DNA from: a virus
Taxonomy: Duplodnaviria; Heunggongvirae; Uroviricota; Caudoviricetes
DNA: 12,529 nucleotides
Reading direction: 5' to 3' (one strand)
Virus record (IMG/VR): IMGVR_UViG_2657244940_000007
Location: 1 to 12,529 of that record
Position numbers and translations under genes: made by a program. Shown piece by piece: positions 1 to 12,529 of the stretch (position 1 is its first letter; the number at the start of each line of letters is the position of its first letter). The notes below the pieces were generated by a model. The model did no database searches. It was not told the DNA's origin and saw nothing but the letters and a program-made list of their open reading frames with translations.

Positions 1-419
1 TTTACACGCTCCAGCAGGATGCTTTGCTCATGGTAATAGTCCATAAGAAGAGTAACATCCTCTTTATCAAGCTTACTTAATTCGCTGAAGTAGGATTTAA
101 ACACTTTATCAGTCTGGTTTAATGCAATCTGTAAGCGAGGCCCCCCTAATGATTTGACATTAATGGCAAAAGGCTCGCCAACAAAATGCTCCGAATTTTC
201 GTCAAAGCCAATATATCTCGTTTTATCAAGAAAAGTGAGAGCGCGATGGTTATTAGCGATTTCATATGCAAACATTGTTCTGATACTGTCCCTCTCAGCC
301 TCCATGCTTATATCATCACGATGATTTGTATAAAATATATTTCCAACAAAGAGAACCATGGCAAGAATCACTGAACTTGCCTCCCAGTTAATATTTTTTA
401 ATCGTCGCTTAGTAAACAT
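1..419 (-). CDS. Partial CDS (5' end only; continues beyond window start): hypothetical protein with N-terminal hydrophobic anchor, carried in AT-rich accessory DNA at the P2 Z/fun-equivalent position
   Basis: My own reverse-complement translation from ATG at 419 gives 139 codons with no stop: MFTKRRLKNINWEASSVILAMVLFVGNIFYTNHRDDISMEAERDSIRTMFAYEIANNHRALTFLDKTRYIGFDENSEHFVGEPFAINVKSLGGPRLQIALNQTDKVFKSYFSELSKLDKEDVTLLMDYYHEQSILLERV... AAGGTG Shine-Dalgarno-like motif a few nt upstream of the ATG. One ~17-residue hydrophobic stretch (SSVILAMVLFVGNIFY). An uninterrupted frame this long in AT-rich DNA is unlikely by chance. Not in the supplied ORF track, presumably because it is open at the window edge. 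No family recognised. Confidence 0.6.
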   Translation of the reverse strand, partial: MFTKRRLKNINWEASSVILAMVLFVGNIFYTNHRDDISMEAERDSIRTMFAYEIANNHRALTFLDKTRYIGFDENSEHFVGEPFAINVKSLGGPRLQIALNQTDKVFKSYFSELSKLDKEDVTLLMDYYHEQSILLERV

Positions 420-640
420 ACCGCACCTTAATTATCAAAAATATTCCTTCAGTGTTATCTGGTTAGCCTAAACCAAGTCATTAAAGTCTGCAGGATATCA
501 TATACATAAAATGTATTGATTAGAATTTGCACTAATAAAATAATGCTTTACTAAAATCTACTCCAGACACAGAGCGGCCTGTCAGATTAGGCTTTACTCT
601 GTGCCATAGATATGTTTGCTCACTCCAGAGATCATACAAC

Positions 641-1168
641 TTATTGCGGCATTTCCGGCCATTCAGGATTTGCAGGATCCACACGACTGACCAGAACGCT
701 GTAACGCTCCCATGCATCCAGTCGGCTACGCTCCTCATCTGTTGCCATGTTCAGTCTGACCGCGCGCTCCAGCGGCAAAATCACGGATTCAGCATCTGCA
801 AGAAGTCTGGCTTTCCGGTTTTCTGCCTGCTGCAGCAATTCCTCTGCCGTATAAATGCGTTTAATCACTTTGCCGTCCTTAAACATCCAGCCCCCTGAAA
901 TGTCCGCCCGTCGGTTAGCAGTAATATCCGCCACTTCAACAACACTTAATCCATCCGGTCTGATAGCTGTCACATCCTTTTCCACATAGCGGATAATATT
1001 ATCTTTGTCGTACGCTATTTTTATCGTGTCATCAGCAAAATACTTTTGTTCTTCGTACCAGTTCTTACCATCTTCTGAAAAAAACCAGACAACATCAAAA
1101 CCCTTTGTCAATTGATATTGTTCAACCGTTTTTGGATTACCCGCCGTAATATTTTTTAAATGCTGCAT
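641..1168 (-). CDS. G: Phage tail fibre assembly protein (P2 gpG-like chaperone)
   Basis: 175 aa, same length as P2 gpG. Begins MQHLKNI and ends ...[14 protein letters not shown], as I recall for P2 G / Tfa family. Lies 3 nt downstream of the tail fibre gene on the same strand. Confidence 0.85.
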
Positions 1169-1171
1169 AAA

Positions 1172-3931
1172 TTATACCTGCGCCACGTTATACCATGTCC
1201 CGTTAATGTATTTCTGAACCGGCCTGTAATATACACCACCAATGTTATCGGCAGAGTTTGAGCCGGTATCCTGAACAATAATGCCGGAATATACACACCC
1301 GGACGGTGCCTGATGTGTCCATGTCATGCCATTGTTCGCAGGTTTGTATGTGGCAGCACCACCAAGCCGGATATCCCGGACATAGCGGGAATCAAAGTTA
1401 CCGTAATCCGAGGGATTAACACGCCCCGTAATATTTATGGTTTTATTACTTTGAATACTTCCCGAGACAAAGCGCATAATATGGACGCTATTAGCATAAA
1501 CATCCAGATTACCATCACCATTTTGTTTAAAGCCCGTGTCATTATCACCCAAAACAATCGAATTACCGCCAAGAGCACTGGATGTTCCTATACCCAGAGC
1601 ACCATTCAATTGACCACCAGATAACGGCAGTGCACCGACATCTCCCGCTGTAGGTTTTCGCGTTGTGGTATAAAACTCAGACCAGTCAGCCTCGAATCCG
1701 TAACCGTCACGAGCAGAACGATAAAAAATACCGCCGTTCTTATAATTAACGCGGAACTGGGCGGCGGGACAACTTCCTTCACCGATATTAAAATGAAGAA
1801 TTAACGTTGATGCCCCACCAGTAGTTGCGTTATAGGCTCCGCTACTCCAGTTCCACCCAACGGCTTTATCATTCGCAACGGTGTCTCCTGTTTTTCCTGA
1901 AGCAAATGCACCAATATTTTTCGGCGTCAAGTTAATATCTGATGTTCCATCAAACGAAACGTTATTAATTTTACGGGCTGTTTTCAGCTTTGTTGCTGTC
2001 GCCGCATTGCCGGACAGTTCACCAGAAAGGCCAGCACTGAATGTCTGTTTCGCGCCCCATGTCTGGGCTTCGTCAATGATTGGTACTCGTCTTGCTGTGA
2101 TCGTGCGGCTTCCCGGATTTCCTGAAATACGCACCATAAAAAAGCGGTAGTTCGCTTTACTTACAGTGCTGCGCCATACATGCATTGAGCGCCCCGTACC
2201 GGAATCATCACTCGGACCAACTGCGATGTTTATCAGGTTGCCATCAATGACGCCCCAGTCCATACCGTCGGGAATGTTGGTCATGTTATCAAGCCGCACG
2301 GTTATCAGACTGCCCGGCACAAAATCGTAGGTCTGCCAGTCCAGACTGGATAGTTTTGCCACTGCGCCACCGATGCCCAGATTCAGAGGCAACGAAAAGG
2401 AGTTATATACTTCTCGCCATTCGGTCCATTTGCTCCCGGCGTAGACGCGCTCAAAAGTGCGTCCCTGTGTGGTTTCTGATTTCCCTGTGGTTGTGTAACG
2501 CTGCCAGACAGACACACCATCAAAACGTCTGATTACTTCCAGTATCCCAAGTAGTGTCGCGCCAACGGTGTCCAGCATCGGACCGTTTGTTGCCTTTCCT
2601 GTAACACTGTAAATACCGGGGTCGGTTAGAACATTTAAATCACCTTCGTAATAACGACTCTCTGACTGATGACCGACTCTTAACCACGGTTCCCACTGCG
2701 GATTTGATGCATCCCAGCTTGCCGCAAGACAGCGGACATACATATTTCCACGGCGAGTGGTATAACGTTGCGTTCTTCCATAATTTCCGCCTTCGAGGAT
2801 CTCAAGCATCCCCTGAGCAAAGCCGCCTTCCTCTGGATAATTGCGTTCATATGAAGCTATAGCTGAGCTACTGTTACGCCATAAACCAAGATGCTCGGCG
2901 GCTCCAAGCGTATTCAGGTCTATAGTCGTACTCAAAGGGCGGGTAGCAGATTGAGTGTGACGCCATACGCCCCACGGACCATCAGTGCCATTCCACCTAT
3001 TGGCGAGTTTACGCATGTATACATTGCCGTCTCTCGTGGTAAAGCGTTGCGTACCTGCAAAATTGCCGGCAGCAAAAACCTCAAGCACACCGACAGCATT
3101 ATCTTCCGGGAAATTTTTCTCCAGTGTTGCGTTGGTGGATGTTGCTTTAGACCAGATACCTGAATAAGCCTTAACAGGACCAAACGTATTCAGATCAGCA
3201 TCAAGCGGCATTTCGCCATTGTTTTTCATAAACGTCAGGCTGGTAACGCCAACATTGTCCAGAAAAGCTGATTTATCCTGGATATCTGCACCGTTCTGAT
3301 TTTTCGCCAGACGTGAATTTGCGTTGTCATTCGCAGCCTTGACCGCTTTTGGCGTTGCCGCCAGCTTTTCACTGGTGCTGTTTGTTGCACTGCTTAACTG
3401 AGTAAAACCTTTTTCTGTCAGCGTGGCGTCAGGATGGCGGCGGGACTGCTCATGCTCTGCGATTTTGTCATCGACGTAATCCTGCGTAGCCATCACTGTG
3501 CTGGCATCAATACTCAGCTCAACGGACGCCACGTTGCTGAGAATAATAACCATGCGGCAGGTCTGCGCACGTCCGGAGCCTTCAGCCAGTTCTGGCTTAT
3601 AGCTTTCTGCCATGTTGGATACCGCAATCAGTGTTCCGGCATCGTCATACAGACCAAGCTCACGCATCCAGAAGCCGCCCACTTCTGGCGGAACAACCAG
3701 TTCAGCCACAATATAGTTTTTATTCTTATTATCCACACTGACTTTATTCAGAGCGTGACGCCAGACCTCATGCACCAGTTTCGTCTGACCGGCATCCGGC
3801 ACCGGTAATTTGCCATTACCGTCACCCACGGCCATTGCAGACAGGTTTACTTTTTTCCCGCCGGGGACAGTGGCGGCAGCCAGCTTTGCGGCTCCGGCAG
3901 TAGTGATAACGGTTTTAAATTTCGTGCTCAT
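1172..3931 (-). CDS. H: Phage tail fibre protein; P2 gpH-like N-terminal domain with a divergent, repeat-containing C-terminal receptor-binding region
   Basis: 919 aa. N-terminus (MSTKFKTVITTAGAAKLAAATVPGGKKVNLSAMAVGDGNG...) matches the conserved P2 H baseplate-attachment region as I recall it. Middle has three ~55-aa tandem repeats with a G.LE..(x)G..G.TQR[FY]TTR.GN.Y.R core. C-terminus resembles lambda Stf / T4 gp37-type tips. P2 H is 669 aa by recollection, so this is a longer mosaic. Confidence 0.9.
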   Translation of the reverse strand: MSTKFKTVITTAGAAKLAAATVPGGKKVNLSAMAVGDGNGKLPVPDAGQTKLVHEVWRHALNKVSVDNKNKNYIVAELVVPPEVGGFWMRELGLYDDAGTLIAVSNMAESYKPELAEGSGRAQTCRMVIILSNVASVELSIDASTVMATQDYVDDKIAEHEQSRRHPDATLTEKGFTQLSSATNSTSEKLAATPKAVKAANDNANSRLAKNQNGADIQDKSAFLDNVGVTSLTFMKNNGEMPLDADLNTFGPVKAYSGIWSKATSTNATLEKNFPEDNAVGVLEVFAAGNFAGTQRFTTRDGNVYMRKLANRWNGTDGPWGVWRHTQSATRPLSTTIDLNTLGAAEHLGLWRNSSSAIASYERNYPEEGGFAQGMLEILEGGNYGRTQRYTTRRGNMYVRCLAASWDASNPQWEPWLRVGHQSESRYYEGDLNVLTDPGIYSVTGKATNGPMLDTVGATLLGILEVIRRFDGVSVWQRYTTTGKSETTQGRTFERVYAGSKWTEWREVYNSFSLPLNLGIGGAVAKLSSLDWQTYDFVPGSLITVRLDNMTNIPDGMDWGVIDGNLINIAVGPSDDSGTGRSMHVWRSTVSKANYRFFMVRISGNPGSRTITARRVPIIDEAQTWGAKQTFSAGLSGELSGNAATATKLKTARKINNVSFDGTSDINLTPKNIGAFASGKTGDTVANDKAVGWNWSSGAYNATTGGASTLILHFNIGEGSCPAAQFRVNYKNGGIFYRSARDGYGFEADWSEFYTTTRKPTAGDVGALPLSGGQLNGALGIGTSSALGGNSIVLGDNDTGFKQNGDGNLDVYANSVHIMRFVSGSIQSNKTINITGRVNPSDYGNFDSRYVRDIRLGGAATYKPANNGMTWTHQAPSGCVYSGIIVQDTGSNSADNIGGVYYRPVQKYINGTWYNVAQV

Positions 3932-3941
3932 TGTTTCTCAC

Positions 3942-4472
3942 TTATCCGGGATAAACAGTAATAACATCACCATCACAGACCACACCGCCTGTATACAGAT
4001 AGCCGGGAATGTCCTGGATAATGTTCAGACCGATAAGGTGGCGACTTGCGGGTTTGGCATCGGCAATCAGCCGTTCCATTTCCAGATACATCTCCTCCGT
4101 GATGCCGCTTTCCAGCACACCGATATCAAGGCGAAAGGTGCCGGGCGGGTCGTTTGTCTCCCACCATTCCTTTACGTTAATGAGATAGCCGAGCGGCTCC
4201 ACCACACGCCGGATTGCGCCTATAGTGCCTTTATGACAGTGGATGAAATAGGCATCGCGAATAACGGCGCGTTTTGTCGCTTCCGGCCACTTTTCATCCC
4301 ACCTGTCGACCGAAAACGCCCATGCCAGCCACGGCAGCAAATTTGCCGGGCAGGTGTCCGGGTTCCACTGCTCACGAATCCTGACCGGCGTTTTTTCAAT
4401 TTCCGCACAGGCTTTTGCGGCAGCAACTTCAAGCGGTGATGAGCCGGTCGGCAGCAGTCGCGAATCACTCAT
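3942..4472 (-). CDS. I: Baseplate assembly protein I (P2 gpI-like)
   Basis: 176 aa, same as P2 gpI; begins MSDSRLLPTGSSPLEVAAAKACAEIEKTP..., ends ...DVITVYPG. Synteny J-I-H-G. Confidence 0.9.
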   Translation of the reverse strand: MSDSRLLPTGSSPLEVAAAKACAEIEKTPVRIREQWNPDTCPANLLPWLAWAFSVDRWDEKWPEATKRAVIRDAYFIHCHKGTIGAIRRVVEPLGYLINVKEWWETNDPPGTFRLDIGVLESGITEEMYLEMERLIADAKPASRHLIGLNIIQDIPGYLYTGGVVCDGDVITVYPG

Positions 4473-5372
4473 CCGAGCCTCCGGTCACGACGCGGTATTC
4501 GGTGCAGAAAGACGCCTGCGTACTGTTGAGCACGATGTCGGCCAGTGGTGCGGCCAGTTCGACACGCTGCACGCCTTCCACATGCAAAGCGGCATAAATG
4601 GCAGACAGACGGATGTCGCGCCCCAGCCGGTGCTGTGCCGTGATGTATGCTTCCAGTTTTTTCACGGCGGCCGCGCGGATGGGTTCACTTTCGGGACCAG
4701 GGTAAAGGTAAAGCGTGGCGTTTATCTGGTATTCAACAATGGCGGCAGACTGCACGGTCACGCGGTCGGCCACCGGTCTGACGTCCTCGCCATTCAGGGC
4801 GTTACGCACCACCGCCAGCAGGTCTTCGGATGCGACACCGTTATTCTCACGTGACAGCACAGAGATGGTGACGCAGGCCGGAGACGGACTGGTGACAGAG
4901 ATATCCGCGACACGCCCGTCAGCACTGCGGCCATGATACTGATAGGCACCCACCGACCCGGCGACGCTTAAACCTTCAAACGCCTGCTGAATACGCAGAC
5001 GATAATCGGTATCAGATTCCATCACTGCCGGTGTCGGCGGGATAGTCGAATCATCTGCCGGGGTGATAGTCAGACGCGTGGTGTTGTAATTGGCACCAAT
5101 CACATCAAGGTCATTACCCGCGGCACAGGCCAGCATCACCGCCCGTGCGGCCTCATTCACACGCTGACGCCAGATAAGCTCACGATAAGCATTTTCCTCC
5201 AGCAATTTGACGAGAGGCTCGGATTCCAGCGTCAGGGTACGGCGACCGCCTCCTGCTGGTCTTCCGGGTAAAGGGAAATCAGTGTCGCCTTGCGTTCGGC
5301 GAGAATGGTTTCAAAGTCCAGCTCCTCGACCACATCCGGTGCGGGTAGCTGGTTCAGGTCGATAATCGGCAT
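4465..5372 (-). pseudogene. J: Baseplate assembly protein J (P2 gpJ-like) interrupted by an apparent single-base frameshift near 5238..5244
   Basis: ATG at 5372 translates MPIIDLNQLPAPDVVEELDFETILAERKATLISLYPEDQQEAVAVP then TGA at 5232..5234. The rest of J (RTLTLESEPLVKLLEENAYRELIW... to GGSDE) continues in the adjacent frame and is the 4465..5205 ORF in the track, which begins at TTG. Combined length ~302 aa equals intact P2 gpJ. Read directly from the sequence on the minus strand: ...gcg gtc gcc gta ccc tga; one extra C (gcc cgt acc ctg) would restore ...AVARTLTLE... Confidence 0.65.
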
Positions 5373-5376
5373 GGTT

Positions 5377-5724
5377 TCAACTCACAGGGATGGTTAACGA
5401 AAGTGGCTGGCCGGTGTCGTTGTGCTGGCCGGTTAACGTGACCGTCATTCGCCCGTCAAAACTGCGCTCAGTGGTGACGGATGACAGGGTGACGCGGGGT
5501 TCCCATTTCAGCACCGCCATGTAACAGGCGACCTTAATCTGCAACTCAAGCGCCGGGGTCTGCGGCTGGTCAATCATTGACGCCAGCAACGAGCCGTAAT
5601 CACGACGCATCACCCGCGAGCCGACCGGTGTGCGCAGGATATCGCCGATACTCTGGCTGATATGCTCAAGGTCAGTGACAGTCAGGCCATCACTGCAATT
5701 CATTCCGAGATAACGCGCTGTCAT
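5377..5724 (-). CDS. W: Baseplate assembly protein W (P2 gpW-like)
   Basis: 115 aa, same as P2 gpW; MTARYLGMNCSDGLTVTDLEHISQSIGDILRTPVGSRVMRRDYGS... Four-base ATGA overlap with the V stop. Confidence 0.9.
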   Translation of the reverse strand: MTARYLGMNCSDGLTVTDLEHISQSIGDILRTPVGSRVMRRDYGSLLASMIDQPQTPALELQIKVACYMAVLKWEPRVTLSSVTTERSFDGRMTVTLTGQHNDTGQPLSLTIPVS

Positions 5725-6356
5725 AGAGGGCTCCCGGTTGTGCCGCCGCTGTCGCCGGGGTGTTTATGGGTATGCAGTACCTTACCATTTGATGAGAGTT
5801 CACCGCCGGTGTGTTCAATGTTGCCGCGCATCGTCCCGCCCTTCTGTACTTCCAGCGTGCCGGTAATCAGCCTGTTGGTGCAGACCACCTCCGGTGTGTC
5901 CAGGGTGATGCGAGTTGACGCTTTCACCATGACCACCGGCACCGTGGCGATAACAGAATCAGAAGCCGTCACGCTGGCCGTTTTAATTCCGCTTACCGTC
6001 AGTGCACTGGTTTCAGGTTCATACTCAATCACCGCCCCGTCAGGGAAACGGATGTACAGGGCATCCGCCGACGCAGACGGCGCGGGGTTATCACCGGAAT
6101 AAATCCCCGGCAGAACAAACGCCGTGTCGAGTTCGCCGCCCACGGACAGAATCAGCACCTGCTCCCCCACCGAAGGTGCCCACCATGTGCGTGAACGTCC
6201 GGCACGATGAGTCAGCCACTGAAGCCAGTCGGTGCACATGCCGCCGGTCTGCACACGGCAGCGACCGGCATTAAGGTCGGTTTCGACGATAATGCCGGTG
6301 CGAATCATGTTGCGCAGTGCGCGCGCGAGTTCCTGAATATTTGCGAGAGTGTTCAT
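5721..6356 (-). CDS. V: Baseplate central spike protein V (P2 gpV-like)
   Basis: 211 aa, same as P2 gpV; MNTLANIQELARALRNMIRTGIIVETDLNAGRCRVQTGG..., C-terminal HTHKHPGDSGGTTGSPL. Confidence 0.9.
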   Translation of the reverse strand: MNTLANIQELARALRNMIRTGIIVETDLNAGRCRVQTGGMCTDWLQWLTHRAGRSRTWWAPSVGEQVLILSVGGELDTAFVLPGIYSGDNPAPSASADALYIRFPDGAVIEYEPETSALTVSGIKTASVTASDSVIATVPVVMVKASTRITLDTPEVVCTNRLITGTLEVQKGGTMRGNIEHTGGELSSNGKVLHTHKHPGDSGGTTGSPL

Positions 6357-6422
6357 AACGGGAAGGATGCCGCCGGGTCATACCGTCGGCAATGTGACGA
6401 TGAGGTGTCGGGAATGGCACAA
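6357..6422 (-). promoter_or_regulatory. Probable position of the Ogr-dependent late promoter P_V, assigned by synteny only
   Basis: 66-nt S-V intergenic gap, where P2 has late promoter P_V. The only dyad I see is TGT-N10-ACA at 6405..6420, which does not match the TGT-N12-ACA spacing I recall for Ogr/Delta sites. Element not verified. Confidence 0.25.
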
Positions 6423-6875
6423 CTAACGGTCAAGGTGAGCCTGGATAATCTCTTCAATCATCTGCACATCCTCACCGGTAAAGCCGAGCAGAGGACGCGC
6501 CGGATAATCAATCTTCTTACCGTCTTTCCGGTTTTCTTCCGACAGACCGAACTGATGCACACTGGCGATTTTCGGTGACTTTCCGCCGTAAAACTCCATT
6601 GAGGCCTGTTCAGGGCTGGCGCGGATATGCAAAAAACGACTGGTGATAAGTTTCGCAAACATTTTTCGCTTAACGCGACCGGTCTTTTTTCTGGCGCTCT
6701 GCTGCTGACGTGGCGCGTAGGGTGTGCCGTCCGGGGCTTTCTGTGCCATCACCCGACGCTGCTGACTCTGCCGCAGACGCTTCGCCAGTTCGGCACTCAG
6801 TCGCCGACGCCCTGACGGTGACAGCGATTCAATCAGTCCGGTCAGCCGGTCTTCAAAACGCTTAAACTCATTCAT
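6423..6875 (-). CDS. S: Tail completion protein S (P2 gpS-like)
   Basis: 150 aa, same as P2 gpS; MNEFKRFEDRLTGLIESLSPSGRRRLSAELAKRLRQSQQRRV... Confidence 0.9.
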   Translation of the reverse strand: MNEFKRFEDRLTGLIESLSPSGRRRLSAELAKRLRQSQQRRVMAQKAPDGTPYAPRQQQSARKKTGRVKRKMFAKLITSRFLHIRASPEQASMEFYGGKSPKIASVHQFGLSEENRKDGKKIDYPARPLLGFTGEDVQMIEEIIQAHLDR

Positions 6876-7335
6876 CCCACTTGCTCACCAGTTCGCCATT
6901 GATATACAGCTCCATCGGGCGGGTGACCGGCTCCGGCGGCGGGGGTTCCGGGATATTCTTCACATGCAGTGCGCCGTCCACCTCACTGACCAGCGTGCGC
7001 TCGGTCAGCATCAGGCTGATGCTGATATCAAAGCTGCTGTCATTGTTGATGTCTGCATAAAACGTGAAGCCCTTTTTCTGACCTTCGTCGGTGGTCATGA
7101 TGTCGGGCTGATTTTCCCGCAGCCACGCCAGCACCGGCACGATGAGCAGGTCAAAATCACCGGTAAAGTCGGTCACAATGACATTGAGCGTGTAACGCTT
7201 TTCGAATGACAACGACGCCGCCAGTGTGGAGGCAATACTCCCGTTATCCACGAATATCCGCAGCATATCGGGGTTAGTTTTCAGCACCGTGACGGCATCA
7301 GTCAGCGCCCTGCGCAGGCTGTCGGGTTTGAGCAT
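6868..7335 (-). CDS. R: Tail completion protein R (P2 gpR-like)
   Basis: 155 aa, same as P2 gpR; MLKPDSLRRALTDAVTVLKTNPDMLRIFVDNGS... Overlaps the S start. Confidence 0.9.
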   Translation of the reverse strand: MLKPDSLRRALTDAVTVLKTNPDMLRIFVDNGSIASTLAASLSFEKRYTLNVIVTDFTGDFDLLIVPVLAWLRENQPDIMTTDEGQKKGFTFYADINNDSSFDISISLMLTERTLVSEVDGALHVKNIPEPPPPEPVTRPMELYINGELVSKWDE

Positions 7336-7588
7336 CGTTTTCGTCCTGACAGTGTTTAATCATTTTTACCTGGCTGGCACAGCGCGCCAGCGCGTTCTCA
7401 AGCTGCCGGATATCGGCACTTAAATCACCGTTCGTCTCCGGGTCGCTGCCCGGCATCGGGCAAAGACTCACTTTCGGGCAGGCGTTGTGGACAATCACTG
7501 GCATCGGTGCAGGCGGGGCGCTGGTGCAACCGGCGCACAGCATCAGGCAGGTCAGCGCCGTACCAGCGGCGAAAATCTTCGTTTTCAT
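7298..7588 (-). CDS. lysC: LysC, Rz1-like outer-membrane spanin (lipoprotein), embedded out of frame in the 3' part of lysB and running into the R start
   Basis: 96 aa. Signal-peptide-like N-terminus with Cys-containing lipobox-like segment (MKTKIFAAGTALTCLMLCAGCTSAPPAP...), proline-rich mature part. Embedded arrangement is the established P2 lysB/lysC organisation. Confidence 0.75.
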   Translation of the reverse strand: MKTKIFAAGTALTCLMLCAGCTSAPPAPMPVIVHNACPKVSLCPMPGSDPETNGDLSADIRQLENALARCASQVKMIKHCQDENDAQTRQPAQGAD

Positions 7589-7868
7589 TCAGTAATCTCG
7601 TGATGGTTTTCTCGCGCTGTGCTTCACGCTTCGCGGCGTTCTCCAGTTCCTGACGCAGTACCACCTGCGCCAGCTCGTTTTTGTCTGCTCTGGTGAGGGC
7701 AACATGAAGCTGATTTTTCAGCATGGTGATGGTCGTCTGCTGCCCGCTGGCGACGTTGTTCGCCCTGTCCAGCGAGGCGCGCAGGCTGGCGTTTTCATGC
7801 TTCGCCAGAAACAGCCCCGCCACCGCCAGCGATAACAACACAACCATCACAATCATCAGCCTTGACAT
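7425..7868 (-). CDS. lysB: LysB, Rz-like inner-membrane spanin
   Basis: 147-aa ORF (P2 LysB ~141 aa by recollection, so the true start may be an internal Met). N-terminal TM helix (MIVMVVLLSLAVAGLFLA) followed by a charged coiled-coil-like region. Position between lysA and R. Confidence 0.8.
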   Translation of the reverse strand: MSRLMIVMVVLLSLAVAGLFLAKHENASLRASLDRANNVASGQQTTITMLKNQLHVALTRADKNELAQVVLRQELENAAKREAQREKTITRLLNENEDFRRWYGADLPDAVRRLHQRPACTDASDCPQRLPESESLPDAGQRPGDER

Positions 7869-8281
7869 GGTTCCCGCCCCTCAAGACGCTGACGGCAGGC
7901 CGTGCGTATCAGCCGGAAAAACAGCGACGCCACGAGATAAATCAGCGCGGTAAAAATCCACCCGGCAGCGACCAGCGAGATAAATGTCGCCACCATCACA
8001 ACCAGAGCCGCCGCCCGTCTGCGCCACGGCACCGGCTGCAAAAACAGCGACGTGACAATCTTCACGGCCAGCGATTCCGGCGGCAGCTCCCGCCCGTAGC
8101 GTTCCAGCACATACTCAGTGGCATACACGCCGACACCACCGGCAAACACACAGATAACCATCGCCAGAATCGCCCATGCGGCGACAAAACTGACGGCCAC
8201 GCTCTGCGGGTAAATCAGGGACAGTGCCAGCATCAGCGCCAGCGACACGTTCAGCATCAGTGAAAGGGATAATTTCTTCAT
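7856..8281 (-). CDS. lysA: LysA, multi-pass membrane protein affecting lysis timing (P2 LysA-like)
   Basis: 141 aa, same as P2 LysA. Several hydrophobic segments. Position between K and lysB. Confidence 0.8.
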   Translation of the reverse strand: MKKLSLSLMLNVSLALMLALSLIYPQSVAVSFVAAWAILAMVICVFAGGVGVYATEYVLERYGRELPPESLAVKIVTSLFLQPVPWRRRAAALVVMVATFISLVAAGWIFTALIYLVASLFFRLIRTACRQRLEGREPCQG

Positions 8282-8295
8282 GGTGTTTACTCCGT

Positions 8296-8793
8296 TTAAG
8301 CCGGTACGCCGCCAGCGGTACGCCAGACGGTGACCAGTTTTTCCAGTGAATGCTCACGCTGACCGTAACCGGCACCCGGCAGGGACGCCCAGATATTGCG
8401 ACAGCGTGAAATGGCGCGCTCAATACATCCCGCCCGGATGTCATCCAGCGCACCGCGTTCGCGGATCAACTGAATGGCGAGTCTGTCCTGTGACAACGGA
8501 CTGAAATCCGGCAGGGCAAGCTGTTTGCGGTAATGCGGCCAGAACAGGTAAAGCTGCTGATAGCGACCGGAGGCCGTGGATTTTTCACCGCGACGGTTAA
8601 ACACCTTCGCCGGTCGGCCATGCGCGAACGGGTGGTCACTGTAGTCGGTGAAAATTTCCGGCTTCCCGTCCAGTCCGGTGACTATCACGTCATAGCCCCG
8701 GTTTTTCGTCAGCGGATGATTCGCCGTCCCTTCGGACACGGCCAGCATGTCGAGAAAGGCGGCGATATTCTGATGCGTGTTAATTACCGGCAT
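8296..8793 (-). CDS. K: Endolysin (P2 gpK-like lysozyme)
   Basis: 165 aa, same as P2 gpK; MPVINTHQNIAAFLDMLAVSEGTANHPLTKNRGYDVIVTG... Immediately downstream of the holin with overlapping stop/start. Confidence 0.9.
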   Translation of the reverse strand: MPVINTHQNIAAFLDMLAVSEGTANHPLTKNRGYDVIVTGLDGKPEIFTDYSDHPFAHGRPAKVFNRRGEKSTASGRYQQLYLFWPHYRKQLALPDFSPLSQDRLAIQLIRERGALDDIRAGCIERAISRCRNIWASLPGAGYGQREHSLEKLVTVWRTAGGVPA

Positions 8794-9074
8794 TACGGTT
8801 TCCCCCTGCCCTTAAAACGGCGCTGAATGGCAATCTCAATCACCTGATAACCGGCGATACCCAGCATGGAGCCGATGCCGCACACCGCAGGCAGTGACAG
8901 GTCAGGAAACTGCACCAGAACAACACCGGCAACCATCGAGACAAAACCACCGAGCAACATGCGCCCGATAAACAGACGCGGGGTGATGGGTTCACCACCG
9001 GCAAGCACCTTGCCGACAACAATCAGCACCCCAATCATGAAAAGCGACAGGACGCTTTTTTCTTCTGCTGTCAT
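8793..9074 (-). CDS. Y: Holin (P2 gpY-like)
   Basis: 93 aa, same as P2 gpY. Hydrophobic segments with a charged C-terminal tail (…QRRFKGRGKP). Directly precedes the endolysin. Confidence 0.9.
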   Translation of the reverse strand: MTAEEKSVLSLFMIGVLIVVGKVLAGGEPITPRLFIGRMLLGGFVSMVAGVVLVQFPDLSLPAVCGIGSMLGIAGYQVIEIAIQRRFKGRGKP

Positions 9075-9077
9075 GCG

Positions 9078-9281
9078 TTACTCCCACAGATTGACAGTTT
9101 CAGCCACGGGCGCGGTCTGAACGTCGGGCAGTTCGACGGCGGTGCCGTGCGGCAGCACCGCACCCAGTTCAGCCAGTCCCGGATTTGCGGCGAGCACGGT
9201 CTCAACCACGCCCTCAGTGCGCCCGTAATACCGGACACAAATGGCGTCGAGCGTGTCGCCCTGTAGCGCAAAGGTCTTCAT
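9078..9281 (-). CDS. X: Tail protein X (P2 gpX-like)
   Basis: Taken from the internal Met (MKTFALQGDTLDAICVRYYGRTEGVVETVLAANPGLAELGAVLPHGTAVELPDVQTAPVAETVNLWE, 67 aa = P2 gpX), not the 90-aa track ORF, whose 5' extension overlaps the preceding gene. The ATG at 9281..9279 overlaps the upstream TGA as TGATG. Confidence 0.8.
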   Translation of the reverse strand: MKTFALQGDTLDAICVRYYGRTEGVVETVLAANPGLAELGAVLPHGTAVELPDVQTAPVAETVNLWE

Positions 9282-9532
9282 CAGATTTGACTCACGATGC
9301 AGCGCGGCTTGTCCTGGATACGCGCCACCGCCCAGCGCATATCCCGCCACAGCTCATCAATGGTGCTGTCTATGCTGTCGGCCTTTTTGTCGCCTTTCGC
9401 ACTGGCATCCACGCCGCGATAACGCTCATAAAGCGACGCGGTCGCCATCGCACACACGGCGCGCCCGTAGTAAAAAACTTTGATGCTTTCACCGTCGATG
9501 TCGTCCGCCGGGACGTCCGCCAGACGAATAAC
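9281..9532 (-). pseudogene. L: 3'-terminal remnant (~83 codons) of phage capsid-completion gene L, fused in frame to the truncated treF
   Basis: C-terminal part of the 470-aa track ORF (…[81 protein letters not shown]) matches the end of P2 gpL as I recall it. Position immediately upstream of X fits P2 order L-X. No intact L N-terminus and no M, N, O, P or Q genes follow. Confidence 0.7.
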
Positions 9533-10693
9533 ATCGCGACGGGCACTGGCCTTCTGGCGGAACAGTGCTTCTGTCTCTTTCTCGCCTTTCAGCGCCGAGA
9601 TGTTGGCGATGGCGCTCTCCAGTTTAAACAGGAAGGCATTCAGATCGATGGGGATGAACTGGGTGGTACGAATGCTCGCCAGACGACCAGTATCACGCAG
9701 CCAACGGGAAGAGTAATCCCAACCGGAGGCCGCCCCCGCACGTAAATCGCGGTACACCTCGTTAGGCGGGCGACCAGAATGTTTCGCGGTTTCAACGTCC
9801 TCAAGCCAGGATTCGTCACGCGGCGTGTCGCGATCGTCCCAGTAACGGTTGAGCAGCGAGCCGTCCGGCATCCGCACAACATGGCGATAGGCCTGATTAG
9901 GGATCAACGATTCTGCACCGTCCATCCAGAAGGCATATTCCATTTTCAGGTGGTCGAGATAGCGGCGCGCGCCGCGTACACCATCTTCTTCAAACAACTC
10001 CACCATCAGCGCAAAAACCGGTGGTTGCGAGCGGCTCAAATAATAGGTGCGGTTGCCGTTGGGGATGTGGCCGTAGTTTTCGATCATCCAGGCGAAGTTA
10101 TCGGCCATGCATTTCAGCAAATCTTCCCGACCACTTTCCGCCAGCCCCAGCATGGTGAAATAGGAATCCCAATAGTAGGTTTCGCTAAAACGGCCGCCCG
10201 GGACAATATATGACTGCGGCAGCGCCAGCAGAGAAGACCACGGAATGTGATCCTGTGGTTCACGGGTTAGCACCGGCCACAGCTGGTCGATATGCTCTTT
10301 CAGGGAATTTTGCGGGTCCGATACATACTCGCTGGAGTAGACCTCCGGCAGCCAGAAGTGGTTTTCAACAAACTTGCGCAAGTCAAAATCACGATGACGG
10401 CGCACTTTACGGTAGCGGATTAAAATATCCAGCGGGTCCATTTTGGGTGCGCAGTCGGGAAAGGTTTTACTGTCGGGGAAAATTTTCGCCGACTGAACAT
10501 GCTCGAACAGTTCGAGATAGCGATCGGCAGGCGTCAGCGCATCAGAGGCGGGCAGCCCTTCAATCATCTCGGGTTCCGGTTCTGCCTCGATCATCTCATC
10601 CAGTTTTAATTCATACGGGTCCAGCTCATAGCAGAGATCGACCTCGATCATCAGTTCGTCTGGATTAGGGTTTTGAATTTTCTGATTGAGCAT
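9533..10693 (-). pseudogene. treF: Cytoplasmic trehalase gene treF, 5' portion only (codons 1 to ~387 of ~549), truncated by fusion to prophage DNA
   Basis: N-terminus [70 protein letters not shown]... matches E. coli TreF through ...[13 protein letters not shown], then switches to phage-L sequence instead of the expected AVNRYLWDDENG... GGAGG Shine-Dalgarno ~9 nt upstream of ATG 10693. Divergent from yhjA as in K-12. Confidence 0.85.
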
Positions 10694-10976
10694 AAGGATC
10701 CGACCTCCGAAATTCGTCGCTAATTATCGGGCTTTTCTTTAAGGGTAGTCATTCGCTCCGCCTGGTGGGCGACAAAGCGTGCGGTGGATCACGTTTATTA
10801 ACCTGCCAAAAAATATAACGCACTAATATCAATGGAATTTATAAAAATACGGATTTCGTGTTGTTTTTCATTTTCAGAACATTCAATCCTGCTCTCGCCG
10901 CAATCATGATATGCCATTCCTGATCTGGGTAATAGGCACTGGCTATCTTATTGATAGTTTATATTCATGTAATTGA

Positions 10977-10990
10977 TTGATTCCTATCAA
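10977..10990 (+). promoter_or_regulatory. FNR-type binding site (TTGAT-N4-ATCAA) upstream of yhjA
   Basis: Exact TTGATtcctATCAA palindrome at 10977..10990. Its centre is ~41.5 bp upstream of a TSS predicted from the TATGAT hexamer at 11012..11017, the geometry of a class II FNR-activated promoter. FNR/OxyR control of yhjA is from memory. Confidence 0.6.
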
Positions 10991-11011
10991 AAAGCATATC
11001 TCCCTGTTTTT

Positions 11012-11017
11012 TATGAT
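11012..11017 (+). promoter_or_regulatory. Candidate -10 hexamer (TATGAT) of the yhjA promoter
   Basis: TATGAT lies 22 bp downstream of the FNR palindrome and ~80 bp upstream of the yhjA ATG. No convincing -35, as expected for an activator-dependent promoter. Confidence 0.4.
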
Positions 11018-11097
11018 GGCTTTGTCTCGCAGAGACGTTTGCAGCATTCTGGAAAATTTTCTGGGTCACAATAACTCACCACCGTGAGGGAAGAATA

Positions 11098-12495
11098 ATG
11101 AAAATGGTCTCACGTATTACCGCGATCGGCCTGGCTGGCGTCGCGATTTGCTATTTAGGGTTATCTGGTTATGTGTGGTACCACGATAATAAACGCAGTA
11201 AACAGGCCGATGTTCAGGCATCTGCTGTCAGTGAAAATAATAAGGTTTTAGGCTTTCTCCGCGAAAAAGGATGCGATTATTGCCATACGCCTTCGGCAGA
11301 ATTACCTGCCTATTATTATATTCCCGGCGCGAAACAGTTGATGGATTACGACATAAAGCTTGGATATAAATCTTTTAACCTCGAGGCCGTGCGTGCGGCT
11401 CTGCTGGCTAATAAACCCGTTTCGCAAAGCGATCTGAATAAGATTGAATGGGTGATGCAGTATGAAACTATGCCGCCAACGCGTTATACCGCGCTACACT
11501 GGGCGGGTAAGGTGAGTGATGAAGAGCGGGCGGAAATACTGGCCTGGATTGCAAAACAGCGCGCGGAATATTACGCCAGCAATGATACTGCTCCGGAGCA
11601 TCGCAATGAACCGGTGCAGCCCATCCCGCAAAAACTGCCTACCGATGCGCAAAAAGTGGCGTTGGGTTTTGCGCTGTATCACGATCCCCGTTTATCGGCT
11701 GATAGCACCATTTCATGCGCTCATTGCCATGCGTTGAATGCGGGGGGCGTCGATGGCAGAAAAACATCGATTGGTGTTGGTGGCGCAGTTGGGCCGATTA
11801 ACGCGCCGACGGTATTTAACTCAGTATTTAACGTTGAGCAGTTCTGGGATGGTCGTGCGGCAACATTGCAGGATCAGGCTGGTGGACCGCCGTTGAACCC
11901 GATTGAAATGGCGTCGAAATCCTGGGACGAAATTATTGCTAAGCTGGAAAAAGATCCGCAGCTTAAAGCGCAGTTCCTCGAAGTCTATCCGCAAGGTTTC
12001 AGTGGCGAAAATATTACTGATGCCATTGCTGAATTTGAGAAAACATTAATTACGCCGGATTCCCCATTTGATAGATGGTTGCGTGGAGATGAGAATGCTC
12101 TGACGGCGCAACAGAAAAAAGGCTATCAATTATTTAAAGATAATAAATGTGCAACTTGTCATGGTGGTATTATTCTCGGCGGACGTTCCTTTGAACCGTT
12201 GGGGCTGAAAAAAGACTTTAACTTTGGTGAAATTACGGCGGCGGATATTGGTCGTATGAATGTTACTAAAGAAGAGCGTGATAAATTGCGTCAGAAAGTA
12301 CCCGGTTTACGTAACGTTGCTTTAACGGCACCGTACTTCCATCGCGGTGACGTGCCGACGCTGGACGGGGCGGTGAAACTGATGCTGCGCTATCAGGTAG
12401 GCAAAGAGCTGCCGCAGGAGGATGTGGATGATATCGTCGCTTTCCTGCACAGTCTGAACGGGGTTTACACGCCGTATATGCAGGATAAACAATAA
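11098..12495 (+). CDS. yhjA: Triheme cytochrome c peroxidase (YhjA/Ccp), membrane-anchored
   Basis: 465 aa. Three c-type haem motifs: CDYCH (res 59-63), CAHCH (207-211), CATCH (351-355). N-terminal hydrophobic anchor (ITAIGLAGVAICYLGLSGYVW). GAGGGAAG Shine-Dalgarno 6-9 nt upstream of the ATG. Matches E. coli YhjA from memory. Confidence 0.95.
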   Translation: MKMVSRITAIGLAGVAICYLGLSGYVWYHDNKRSKQADVQASAVSENNKVLGFLREKGCDYCHTPSAELPAYYYIPGAKQLMDYDIKLGYKSFNLEAVRAALLANKPVSQSDLNKIEWVMQYETMPPTRYTALHWAGKVSDEERAEILAWIAKQRAEYYASNDTAPEHRNEPVQPIPQKLPTDAQKVALGFALYHDPRLSADSTISCAHCHALNAGGVDGRKTSIGVGGAVGPINAPTVFNSVFNVEQFWDGRAATLQDQAGGPPLNPIEMASKSWDEIIAKLEKDPQLKAQFLEVYPQGFSGENITDAIAEFEKTLITPDSPFDRWLRGDENALTAQQKKGYQLFKDNKCATCHGGIILGGRSFEPLGLKKDFNFGEITAADIGRMNVTKEERDKLRQKVPGLRNVALTAPYFHRGDVPTLDGAVKLMLRYQVGKELPQEDVDDIVAFLHSLNGVYTPYMQDKQ

Positions 12496-12506
12496 TTAAT
12501 TTGATC

Positions 12507-12528
12507 GCCCGAACAGGAGTGTTTGGGC
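12507..12528 (+). terminator. Possible intrinsic terminator hairpin after yhjA (stem only; the U-tract would lie beyond the window)
   Basis: GCCCGAACA / GGAG loop / TGTTTGGGC: 9-bp stem including one G-U pair, starting 12 nt after the yhjA stop codon. Confidence 0.35.
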
Positions 12529-12529
12529 G

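What the first reader, a model, noticed from the sequence alone, without database searches (positions are those of the whole stretch)
1..640. AT-rich accessory island at the P2 Z/fun-equivalent hotspot with an unrecognised membrane-anchored ORF running off the window
Left of the tail-fibre assembly gene the composition switches from GC-rich phage DNA to clearly AT-rich DNA. A 220-bp AT-rich spacer (420..640) precedes an ORF that starts at 419 on the minus strand and stays open for at least 139 codons to the window edge. This is the slot between G and FI where P2-like phages exchange accessory cargo, described in the literature as an anti-phage defence hotspot. The visible N-terminus has one hydrophobic anchor and no motif I recognise. 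The gene, and any partners further left, is the best candidate for a novel system in this window.
Basis: partly seen in the sequence, partly recalled or inferred. Interest (0 to 1): 0.75.

Follow-up and report, generated by a model that had tools for sequence, protein, structure and literature searches.

The report
Uncharacterised membrane-anchored cargo gene in P2 hotspot
The AT-rich stretch at the left edge of the window is a real, single-gene accessory cassette in the known variable slot between the tail-fibre assembly gene and the sheath gene of a P2-like prophage; it encodes a conserved 197-residue membrane-anchored protein of unknown function, and its best-fitting but untested role is to block incoming phages at the cell envelope.

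Summary
Window 1-567 is 35% GC against 53% for the rest. An ORF starts at 419 (minus strand) with a good ribosome-binding site and is open for 139 codons to the window edge. Relatives that are 100% identical over window 1-1200 (Peduovirus P24E6b, E. coli 118UI prophage) show the whole gene: 197 aa, alone in an ~850-bp cassette between G and FI, with no partner genes.

It is not homologous to P2 Fun(Z). It matches nothing in Pfam, NCBIfam or PADLOC; its only hit is PHROG 3829 (unknown function). NCBI's name, "lysogenic conversion protein", has no experimental support that I could find.

The gene is real: dN/dS is 0.08-0.17, and the cassette is in 203 of 5,426 complete E. coli genomes. The family is tiny (29 representatives among 1.84 billion) and always solo. 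It sits in accessory slots of P2-like, lambdoid and siphovirus-type (long-tailed) prophages, P4-like satellites, plasmids, a conjugative element and islands.

The predicted protein has a basic cytoplasmic N-terminus, one transmembrane helix, and a ~165-residue helical bundle facing the periplasm.

My best guess is an envelope-level exclusion protein, with low confidence (0.35). It is a legitimate but modest candidate.

Separately, the prophage in this window is truncated in gpL and joined to treF.

The parts
1..419 (-). N-terminal 139 codons of the cargo gene. The full gene is 197 codons plus stop and ends 175 nt left of the window edge, as seen in 100%-identical relatives (L001 5826-6419).
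   Evidence: dN/dS 0.08-0.17; open-frame shuffle test
327..383 (-). Codons 13-31, the single transmembrane helix (WEASSVILAMVLFVGNIFY). It follows a basic N-terminus (KRRLK), which predicts an N-in/C-out signal anchor.
   Evidence: Kyte-Doolittle maximum 1.54 at residues 13-31; the N-terminal flank is net positive (+1 to +7) in all members except P0048, which lacks the N-terminal segment; AlphaFold2 helix 12-66
249..281 (-). Codons 47-57, the most conserved motif of the family (IRTMfAYEIxxN). R47 and N57 are invariant and A51/E53/I54 nearly so. The motif lies on the stalk helix just outside the membrane.
   Evidence: alignment A3 of 27 sequences down to 19% identity
424..429 (-). Shine-Dalgarno sequence AAGGTG, 4 nt upstream of the ATG.
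   Evidence: sequence read directly
420..565 (-). Cassette-specific AT-rich leader. It holds only weak sigma-70-like matches. The best-scoring one ends 12 nt before the ATG and would remove the SD, so no promoter is established.
   Evidence: similarity to copies in other elements stops 22 nt upstream of the ATG
566..605 (-). Conserved backbone hairpin GGCACAGAG...CTCTGTGTC (RNA dG -20 kcal/mol, no U tract) directly downstream of G. Three P2-like phages with three different cargos diverge immediately after it, so it marks the G-side cassette junction.
641..1168 (-). Tail-fibre assembly gene G, the conserved flank of the slot.

Best explanation
The feature is a one-gene accessory cassette (~850 bp, 35% GC) in the G-FI (Z/fun) slot of a P2-like prophage. 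Its product is a 197-residue bitopic inner-membrane protein. It has a short basic cytoplasmic N-terminus and one transmembrane helix. That helix runs on as a long stalk into a ~165-residue all-helical bundle predicted to face the periplasm.

I propose that it is an envelope-level exclusion factor, of the superinfection-exclusion type. Sitting in the inner membrane with its bundle in the periplasm, it would bind or mask a component that incoming phages need to pass their genome across the periplasm and inner membrane. That component could be a host inner-membrane protein or the phage's own ejection or tape-measure proteins. This would protect the cell, and with it the mobile element that carries the gene.

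Shown: the gene is real, its boundaries, that it occurs solo, purifying selection, its spread across mobile elements, and the absence of homology to known families.
Predicted: topology and fold.
Inferred only: expression in the lysogen, the anti-phage role, and the step that is blocked.
For: - The slot is an experimentally supported defence locus: fun(Z) plus three validated PD systems (PMC9519451). P2 fun(Z) at the same place blocks T5 (record annotation).
- The gene is always a solo module, and its neighbours differ in every context. These contexts are a P2-like phage, the end of a Salmonella lambdoid prophage next to a DNA methylase and DUF4928, and two P4-like satellites directly after the alpha primase. 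The primase-att position is named a minor defence hotspot in bioRxiv 10.64898/2026.02.27.708500. Further contexts are a Dickeya island next to SIR2 + DUF87, a Pectobacterium siphovirus-type (long-tailed) prophage tail module, where it lies antisense, IncFII and other plasmid-like replicons, and a conjugative element.
- Purifying selection: dN/dS 0.08-0.17.
- Topology: the N-terminal flank is net positive in all members except P0048, which lacks the N-terminal segment. It is strongly positive in distant members (+6, +7). Distant subfamilies carry a paired-Cys motif in the C-terminal tail, which fits a periplasmic disulfide.
- The architecture is the same as lactococcal Sie2009: basic N-terminus, one TM helix, ~140-residue external domain.
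- No nuclease, ATPase, NTP-binding or nucleic-acid-binding domain is detectable. This argues against a cytoplasmic sensing or effector system.
Against: - There is no experimental datum for this family. I found none in the searchable literature.
- There is no sequence similarity to any known exclusion protein: Sie2009, P22 SieA and Fun(Z) were all negative.
- The fold matches are generic helical bundles. De novo designed bundles score highest, so the fold says nothing about function.
- No convincing promoter was found for expression in the lysogen. The gene is co-oriented with the late operon and no intrinsic terminator lies between it and G, so it may be expressed mainly late in lytic growth.
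- The hotspot is described as mixed-purpose (10.1101/2024.10.15.618418).
- Its presence on plasmids and a conjugative element fits other envelope functions equally well.
- The topology is a prediction.
Confidence: 0.35

Rival explanations
1. It is an abortive-infection or membrane effector. The protein sits idle in the inner membrane and, when triggered by infection, oligomerises and depolarises or permeabilises the membrane. The cell dies before the phage completes its cycle. This is still anti-phage, but by suicide rather than exclusion.
For: The hotspot and defence-island contexts are the same as for the main explanation (PMC9519451). Single-pass membrane effectors are common in defence systems (own knowledge). 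The long continuous helix 12-66 could support oligomerisation.
Against: There is only one moderately hydrophobic TM segment (H 1.54), and most of the mass is a soluble bundle predicted to lie outside the cytoplasm, where it could not sense cytoplasmic phage products. No sensor partner is present in any context. PADLOC gives no hit.
Confidence: 0.17
2. It is a host-fitness (lysogenic conversion) factor unrelated to phages. Examples would be an orphan immunity protein against a periplasm-acting toxin (colicin, T6SS effector or tailocin), or an envelope-stress or colonisation factor carried by mobile elements.
For: NCBI names it 'lysogenic conversion protein', but this is only a name. It has a periplasm-facing domain. 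It occurs on plasmids, a conjugative element and an island that also holds Rhs toxin and immunity genes. The hotspot is described as mixed-purpose (10.1101/2024.10.15.618418).
Against: No cognate toxin gene is linked to it in any context. In the Pantoea island the Rhs module is 4 kb away and has its own SUKH/SMI1 immunity genes. About half of the contexts I looked at are defence-associated positions. There is no similarity to known immunity families.
Confidence: 0.2
3. It is a late lytic-cycle accessory of the phage itself, transcribed by read-through from the V-W-J-I-H-G operon. It might mask an entry component during late infection to prevent superinfection or loss of progeny on lysed cells (the logic of T5 Llp), or it might modulate lysis timing.
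For: It is on the same strand as G, 221 nt downstream. No intrinsic terminator lies between them, and a strong conserved terminator comes only after the cargo, just before the pF promoter (L001 5620-5590). The shared mobile unit has no common promoter, because 5' similarity stops 22 nt before the ATG.
Against: Most P2-like phages lack it: the cassette is in 203 of the ~1,059 complete E. coli genomes that match window 1-1200, mostly through G. It also occurs in satellites, plasmids and islands that have no late operon. In the Pectobacterium prophage it is antisense to the tail genes. The phage already has holin, endolysin and LysB/LysC.
Confidence: 0.1
4. It is a chance ORF or a decaying pseudogene in AT-rich junk DNA.
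For: The DNA is AT-rich, the protein has no known domain, and some truncated alleles of 95-181 aa exist in the cluster.
Against: Only 2 of 5,000 shuffles give an open run this long. dN/dS is 0.08-0.17 at saturating dS. It is full length in 201 of 203 genomes. The model is confident, and homologues down to 19% identity keep the same architecture.
Confidence: 0.02

Closest known systems
P2 fun(Z) (Z/fun locus; blocks T5)
   Same: It occupies the same slot between G and FI, and it is likewise non-essential, AT-rich, horizontally exchanged cargo. The backbone junctions are the same: a conserved hairpin after G and a conserved terminator and pF region before FI.
   Different: There is no sequence relationship (hhalign probability 0.07%). 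It is 197 aa against 528 aa. It is on the same strand as the late genes, whereas fun(Z) is antisense. Fun(Z) shares none of this family's conserved motifs, and no phenotype is known here.
Lactococcal phage Tuc2009 Sie2009-type superinfection exclusion proteins
   Same: The size class and architecture match: a lysine/arginine-rich N-terminus, a single TM helix, and an extracytoplasmic C-terminal domain of ~140-165 residues. Both are single prophage genes.
   Different: There is no homology. The external domain of Sie2009 starts with a Ser/Thr/Gly-rich linker and is not a helical bundle by sequence character. The host is Gram-positive. The function of the present protein is untested.
HK97 gp15 moron (superinfection exclusion, inner membrane)
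   Same: Both are small morons placed among tail genes, co-oriented with them, followed by their own terminator, and encode membrane proteins (the function is from my own knowledge of Cumby et al. 2012).
   Different: gp15 is 62 aa, against 197 aa here. I did not run an alignment because the sizes are incompatible. gp15 has no large periplasmic domain.
P22 SieA
   Same: Both are prophage-encoded inner-membrane proteins of similar length (164 aa) that act alone (PMC10883804 abstract).
   Different: There is no homology beyond a hydrophobic stretch (hhalign probability 0.8%). From my own knowledge, SieA is polytopic.
Periplasmic four-helix-bundle sensor domains (4HB_MCP: Tsr, Tar, PcaY)
   Different: The present protein has no second TM helix and no cytoplasmic signalling module. 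There is no Pfam 4HB_MCP hit. Similarity is at the level of generic bundles, and designed proteins score higher.

Membership tests
P2 Fun(Z) | Sequence homology to P2 Fun(Z) (NP_046777, 528 aa) | tested here: not met
   hhalign of family profile A3 against Fun(Z): probability 0.07%, E 0.67
P2 Fun(Z) | Location between G and FI | tested here: met
P2 Fun(Z) | Exclusion of phage T5 / FUdR sensitivity | not testable with these tools
   Needs a plating assay
P2 orf30 | Located between S and V | tested here: not met
   orf30 lies between V and S (PMC6823313). In the window the S-V gap is 66 bp (6357-6422) and empty. The cargo is in the G-FI slot.
Defence systems in PADLOC-DB v2 (includes PD-T4, PD-lambda and PD-T7 systems found in P2 hotspots) | HMM match to a component | tested here: not met
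   0 families at E <= 10
Sie2009-type superinfection exclusion | Basic N-terminus + single TM + extracytoplasmic C-terminal domain, single prophage gene | tested here: met
   (predicted topology only)
Sie2009-type superinfection exclusion | Sequence homology to Sie2009 | tested here: not met
   hhalign probability 0.08%
Sie2009-type superinfection exclusion | Blocks DNA injection without affecting adsorption | not testable with these tools
   Needs adsorption and DNA-entry assays
P22 SieA | Sequence homology | tested here: not met
   hhalign probability 0.8%, over the hydrophobic segment only
i-spanin (Rz/LysB-like) | N-in/C-out bitopic protein with a helical periplasmic domain | tested here: met
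   (prediction)
i-spanin (Rz/LysB-like) | Paired with an o-spanin lipoprotein gene inside a lysis cassette | tested here: not met
   The phage has its own LysB/LysC in the lysis cassette. The cargo is solo in all 11 contexts examined.
4HB_MCP periplasmic sensor domain | Pfam 4HB_MCP profile match or a specific fold match | tested here: inconclusive
PHROG 3829 | Full-length profile match | tested here: met
   E 2e-137, residues 1-197 on profile 1-197; the family is annotated 'unknown function'

The most novel reading that the evidence does not exclude
The protein founds a new single-gene anti-phage family that acts from the periplasmic face of the inner membrane. It would be a portable, promoter-less RBS + CDS + 3'UTR module that hops between the accessory slots of phages, satellites, plasmids and conjugative elements, and blocks genome entry of a defined phage group. 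It would do this through its conserved membrane-proximal R47/E53/N57 stripe and helical bundle, with no homology to any described exclusion or defence protein.
Probability: 0.3. Interest if true: 0.6.

Novelty: new member of a known kind. Interest (0 to 1): 0.4.

Why it matters
The P2 G-FI slot has already yielded validated defence genes. This cargo is one of its commonest occupants in E. coli: 203 of 5,426 complete genomes carry the cassette, and the exact protein is on 744 contigs. Even so, it has no assigned function and no detectable relative among known systems.

If it is an exclusion protein, it would add a new family to the small and poorly understood set of Gram-negative envelope-level entry blockers. 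It would also give a handle on which inner-membrane or periplasmic step some phages depend on, and it would affect phage susceptibility in about 4% of E. coli strains, which bears on phage therapy host range.

If it is not anti-phage, it is still a widely mobile envelope protein worth a name. In either case the claim is one small gene, not a new multi-component system.

Tried and rejected
- Pfam, NCBIfam and PADLOC scans of the full protein gave nothing. The only marginal hit, YydG rSAM at E 0.03 and 13.8 bits against a cut-off of 300, I rejected as noise.
- A PDB sequence profile search gave one hit at E 0.075, which I rejected.
- The first AlphaFold2 run, on the shallow alignment A2, gave pLDDT 52.6 and was discarded. 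The deeper alignment A3 gave 83.4.
- hhalign against Fun(Z), Sie2009 and SieA was negative in each case.
- Rfam and tRNA scans of the cassette and its flanks found nothing above noise.
- Promoter search: the only match from the consensus scan on the coding strand (ATAACA-16-GATAAT) ends 12 nt before the ATG and would delete the SD, so I rejected it. Relaxed scans gave only weak 8-9/12 matches.
- The 9-bp direct repeat GCCTGTCAG near both cassette ends is about what chance gives in 1.2 kb. I do not claim it as a recombination site.
- Literature searches for the accession and for any tested phenotype of this protein found none.
- The full 197-aa sequence could not be submitted to the structure or representative searches because its end lies outside the window. 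I used the 94%-identical cluster representative P0001 instead.
- A 40-nt probe across the gpL::treF junction found nothing in genome contigs.

Full report
**1. What the window is**

All large ORFs from 641 to about 9500 lie on the minus strand. They are the late genes of a P2-like phage: G, H, I, J, W, V, S, R, lysis genes and X. Window 1-1200 is 100% identical to Peduovirus P24E6b (NC_049389; locus L001, where L001 position = window position + 6000) and to a prophage of E. coli 118UI (locus L002). Window 1-9526 is 99.8% identical to the 118UI prophage.

**2. Check of the observation**

- Composition. GC is 0.34-0.41 across 1-700 and 0.525 at 601-900. The cassette is 34.6% GC, against 53.1% for window 641-12529.
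- ORF. It starts at 419 (ATG) on the minus strand, with AAGGTG 4 nt upstream, and is open for 139 codons to the edge. An open run of this length is reached in 2 of 5,000 shuffles of window 1-567.
- Hydrophobic segment. There is a single one, at residues 13-31.
- Verdict. The G-proximal 75 nt of the 'spacer' are conserved backbone. There are no partner genes to the left.

**3. The complete unit, from identical relatives**

The gene is 594 bp and encodes 197 aa (L001 5826-6419, minus strand; WP_000494502.1, 'hypothetical protein'). It ends 175 nt beyond the window edge. FI starts 330 nt further on. The last 58 codons are therefore inferred from relatives that are 100% identical over window 1-1200. 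They are not seen in the window itself.

I compared three P2-like phages that carry three different cargos: this one, P2 with fun(Z), and P22H4 with a 251-aa antisense ORF.
- The shared backbone runs through a conserved hairpin just after G (window 605-566, dG -20 kcal/mol, no U tract).
- It resumes at 'AAATGTCCGCTTCT' (L001 ~5714).
- The cassette is therefore about 850 bp here, against about 2.1 kb in P2.
- A strong intrinsic terminator (AGGCGGGCGAATTGCCCGCC-TTTTCTTT, L001 5620-5590) lies in the conserved backbone just upstream of the pF activator site.
- No intrinsic terminator lies between G and the cargo.

Unlike fun(Z), which is antisense, this gene is co-oriented with the late operon.

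**4. Is it a real gene?**

Yes.
- Pairwise dN/dS between copies from E. coli, Salmonella and two Pantoea contexts is 0.08-0.17, with dS near or at saturation.
- The cassette is present at >=95% identity in 203 of 5,426 complete E. coli genomes and is full length in 201 of them.
- The exact protein is on 744 contigs.

**5. What it resembles by sequence**

- Pfam, NCBIfam and PADLOC give nothing. PHROG 3829 ('unknown function') matches end to end.
- NCBI sometimes names it 'lysogenic conversion protein'. I found no paper that tests it. I treat the name as positional inheritance from the fun(Z) locus, which is an inference.
- The family is very small. It has 38 clusters at 90% identity among 5.8 billion proteins, and those that carry an organism name are all Enterobacterales. 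It has 29 representatives at E <= 1e-3 among 1.84 billion.
- Members down to 19% identity keep the same plan: a basic N-terminus, a TM helix, the motif IRTMxAYEIxxN, and the motif YF..L..LD..E...M.YY. R47, N57 and L117 are invariant.

**6. Structure and topology (predicted)**

- With the deeper alignment, AlphaFold2 gives pLDDT 83.4 and pTM 0.72. Helix 12-66 forms the TM segment plus a stalk. A loop spans 67-91. Helices follow at 92-100, 105-116, 119-148 and 154-178.
- The N-terminal flank is net positive in all members except P0048, which lacks the N-terminal segment. It reaches +6 and +7 in distant members. The C-flank is about neutral.
- Three divergent subfamilies carry a Cys pair in the C-terminal tail.
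- I read this as an N-in/C-out signal anchor with a periplasmic helical bundle.

**7. Genomic contexts of homologues**

The gene is always solo, and its neighbours are never conserved.

| Context | Host |
|---|---|
| G-FI slot of P2-like phages | E. coli |
| Accessory end of a lambdoid prophage, next to a DNA methylase + DUF4928 | Salmonella |
| Directly after the alpha primase of two independent P4-like satellites | Pantoea, Kosakonia |
| Island next to SIR2 + DUF87 and IS110 | Dickeya |
| Antisense within a siphovirus-type (long-tailed) prophage tail module | Pectobacterium |
| IncFII plasmid | Enterobacter |
| ParB/TraM plasmid-like contig near an AbiJ-N domain gene | Pantoea |
| Between tra genes of a conjugative element | Salmonella |
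| AlpA-type island | Pantoea |

The primase-att position in P4-like satellites is named as a minor defence hotspot in bioRxiv 10.64898/2026.02.27.708500.

About 140 nt of 3' flank travels with the gene in three of these contexts. The 5' similarity ends 22 nt before the ATG. The mobile unit therefore looks like RBS + CDS + 3'UTR, without a shared promoter.

**8. Literature on the slot**

- P2-like phages have three moron regions: orf30 between S and V, fun(Z) between G and FI, and tin/old (PMC6823313).
- Vassallo et al. found three newly validated defence systems plus fun at this second locus (PMC9519451).
- iLund4u describes the locus as mixed-purpose: tail-fibre swaps, invertases and defence-like cargo (10.1101/2024.10.15.618418).
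Its comparison with orf30 is misplaced.

**9. Mechanism**

The best-supported reading is an envelope-level exclusion protein. It would be anchored in the inner membrane, with the bundle in the periplasm interfering with genome delivery by incoming phages. This fits the hotspot, the defence-associated neighbourhoods, the spread as a solo gene across mobile elements, the Sie2009-like architecture and the lack of any enzymatic or nucleic-acid-binding domain.

It remains an inference. There is no homology to Sie2009, SieA or Fun(Z). No promoter for lysogenic expression was identified. The fold is uninformative.

| Reading | Confidence |
|---|---|
| Envelope-level exclusion protein | 0.35 |
| Abortive-infection membrane effector | 0.17 |
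| Host-fitness or orphan immunity factor unrelated to phages | 0.20 |
| Late-expressed phage accessory | 0.10 |
| Chance ORF or pseudogene | 0.02 |

**10. Novelty and verdict**

This is a catalogued but functionally uncharacterised gene family occupying a known hotspot. It is not a member of any known defence or exclusion family that I could test. It is one small gene, not a system. It is a reasonable, inexpensive candidate for a plating assay, and I score its interest as moderate (0.4). The most novel reading not excluded is a new portable family of periplasm-facing entry blockers (probability about 0.3).

**11. Seen in passing**

The phage DNA stops at window 9526, inside gpL, and joins E. 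coli treF, which lacks its last 488 bp. ccp/yhjA follows. ORF 9281-10693 is an in-frame TreF::GpL fusion. None of 5,426 complete E. coli genomes carries this junction, and a junction probe is absent from genome contigs. The element that hosts the cargo in this window is therefore either a head-less prophage remnant or an assembly chimera. This bears on whether the cargo here can still be mobilised, but not on what it encodes.

Noticed in passing
window 9281-10693 (-), junction at 9526-9532: The P2-like DNA ends inside gpL and is joined to the E. coli core gene treF, which lacks its last 488 bp. This creates an in-frame TreF(N-terminal ~387 aa)::GpL(C-terminal 91 aa) ORF of 470 aa. The head genes M, N, O, P and Q are absent on this side. 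No complete E. coli genome (0 of 5,426) and no genome contigs record has this junction. The prophage here is either a truncated remnant or an assembly chimera.
   Followed up: partly
window 11098-12495 (+): A 465-aa di-haem cytochrome c peroxidase (ccp/yhjA), the normal chromosomal neighbour of treF. This is host DNA, not phage DNA.
   Followed up: yes
window 566-605; L001 5590-5714 (outside the window): The cassette junctions are the same in three P2-like phages that carry three different cargos. One is a conserved hairpin right after G. The other is a conserved block starting at AAATGTCCGCTTCT, followed by a strong terminator just before the pF promoter. In P2 and P22H4 the G-side junction carries AAAAGCGGAC / AAAACGGGC, roughly the inverted complement of the FI-side GTCCGCTT, as if cargos sit in the loop of an ancestral terminator-like hairpin.
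   Followed up: partly
L001 5683-5825; L010 6595-6738; L009 6598-6629: About 140 nt of 3' flank co-travels with the cargo gene in a Pantoea island and, in part, in an Enterobacter IncFII plasmid. It includes some 30 nt that are P2 backbone in E. coli. The 5' similarity stops 22 nt before the ATG. This suggests that those copies came from a P2-like context and that the unit moves without a promoter.
   Followed up: partly
window 6357-6422: The other late-region moron slot of P2 (orf30, between S and V) is empty here, with a 66-bp gap.
   Followed up: yes
window ~1000-1300: The 5' part of G and the 3' end of the tail-fibre gene H are also AT-rich (36-41% GC). H is 919 aa, against 669 aa in P2. 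This fits the receptor-binding module being exchanged together with, or next to, the cargo slot.
   Followed up: no
L001 5516-5632 (+), outside the window: RefSeq annotates a 38-aa 'hypothetical protein' that overlaps the conserved terminator and the pF promoter region between the cargo and FI. It is probably a spurious call.
   Followed up: no
proteins P0045, P0050, P0053 (distant homologues): Three divergent subfamilies end in a paired-cysteine motif (C-x4-C or C-x3-C) that the E. coli protein lacks. This fits a periplasmic disulfide loop but has not been tested.
   Followed up: no
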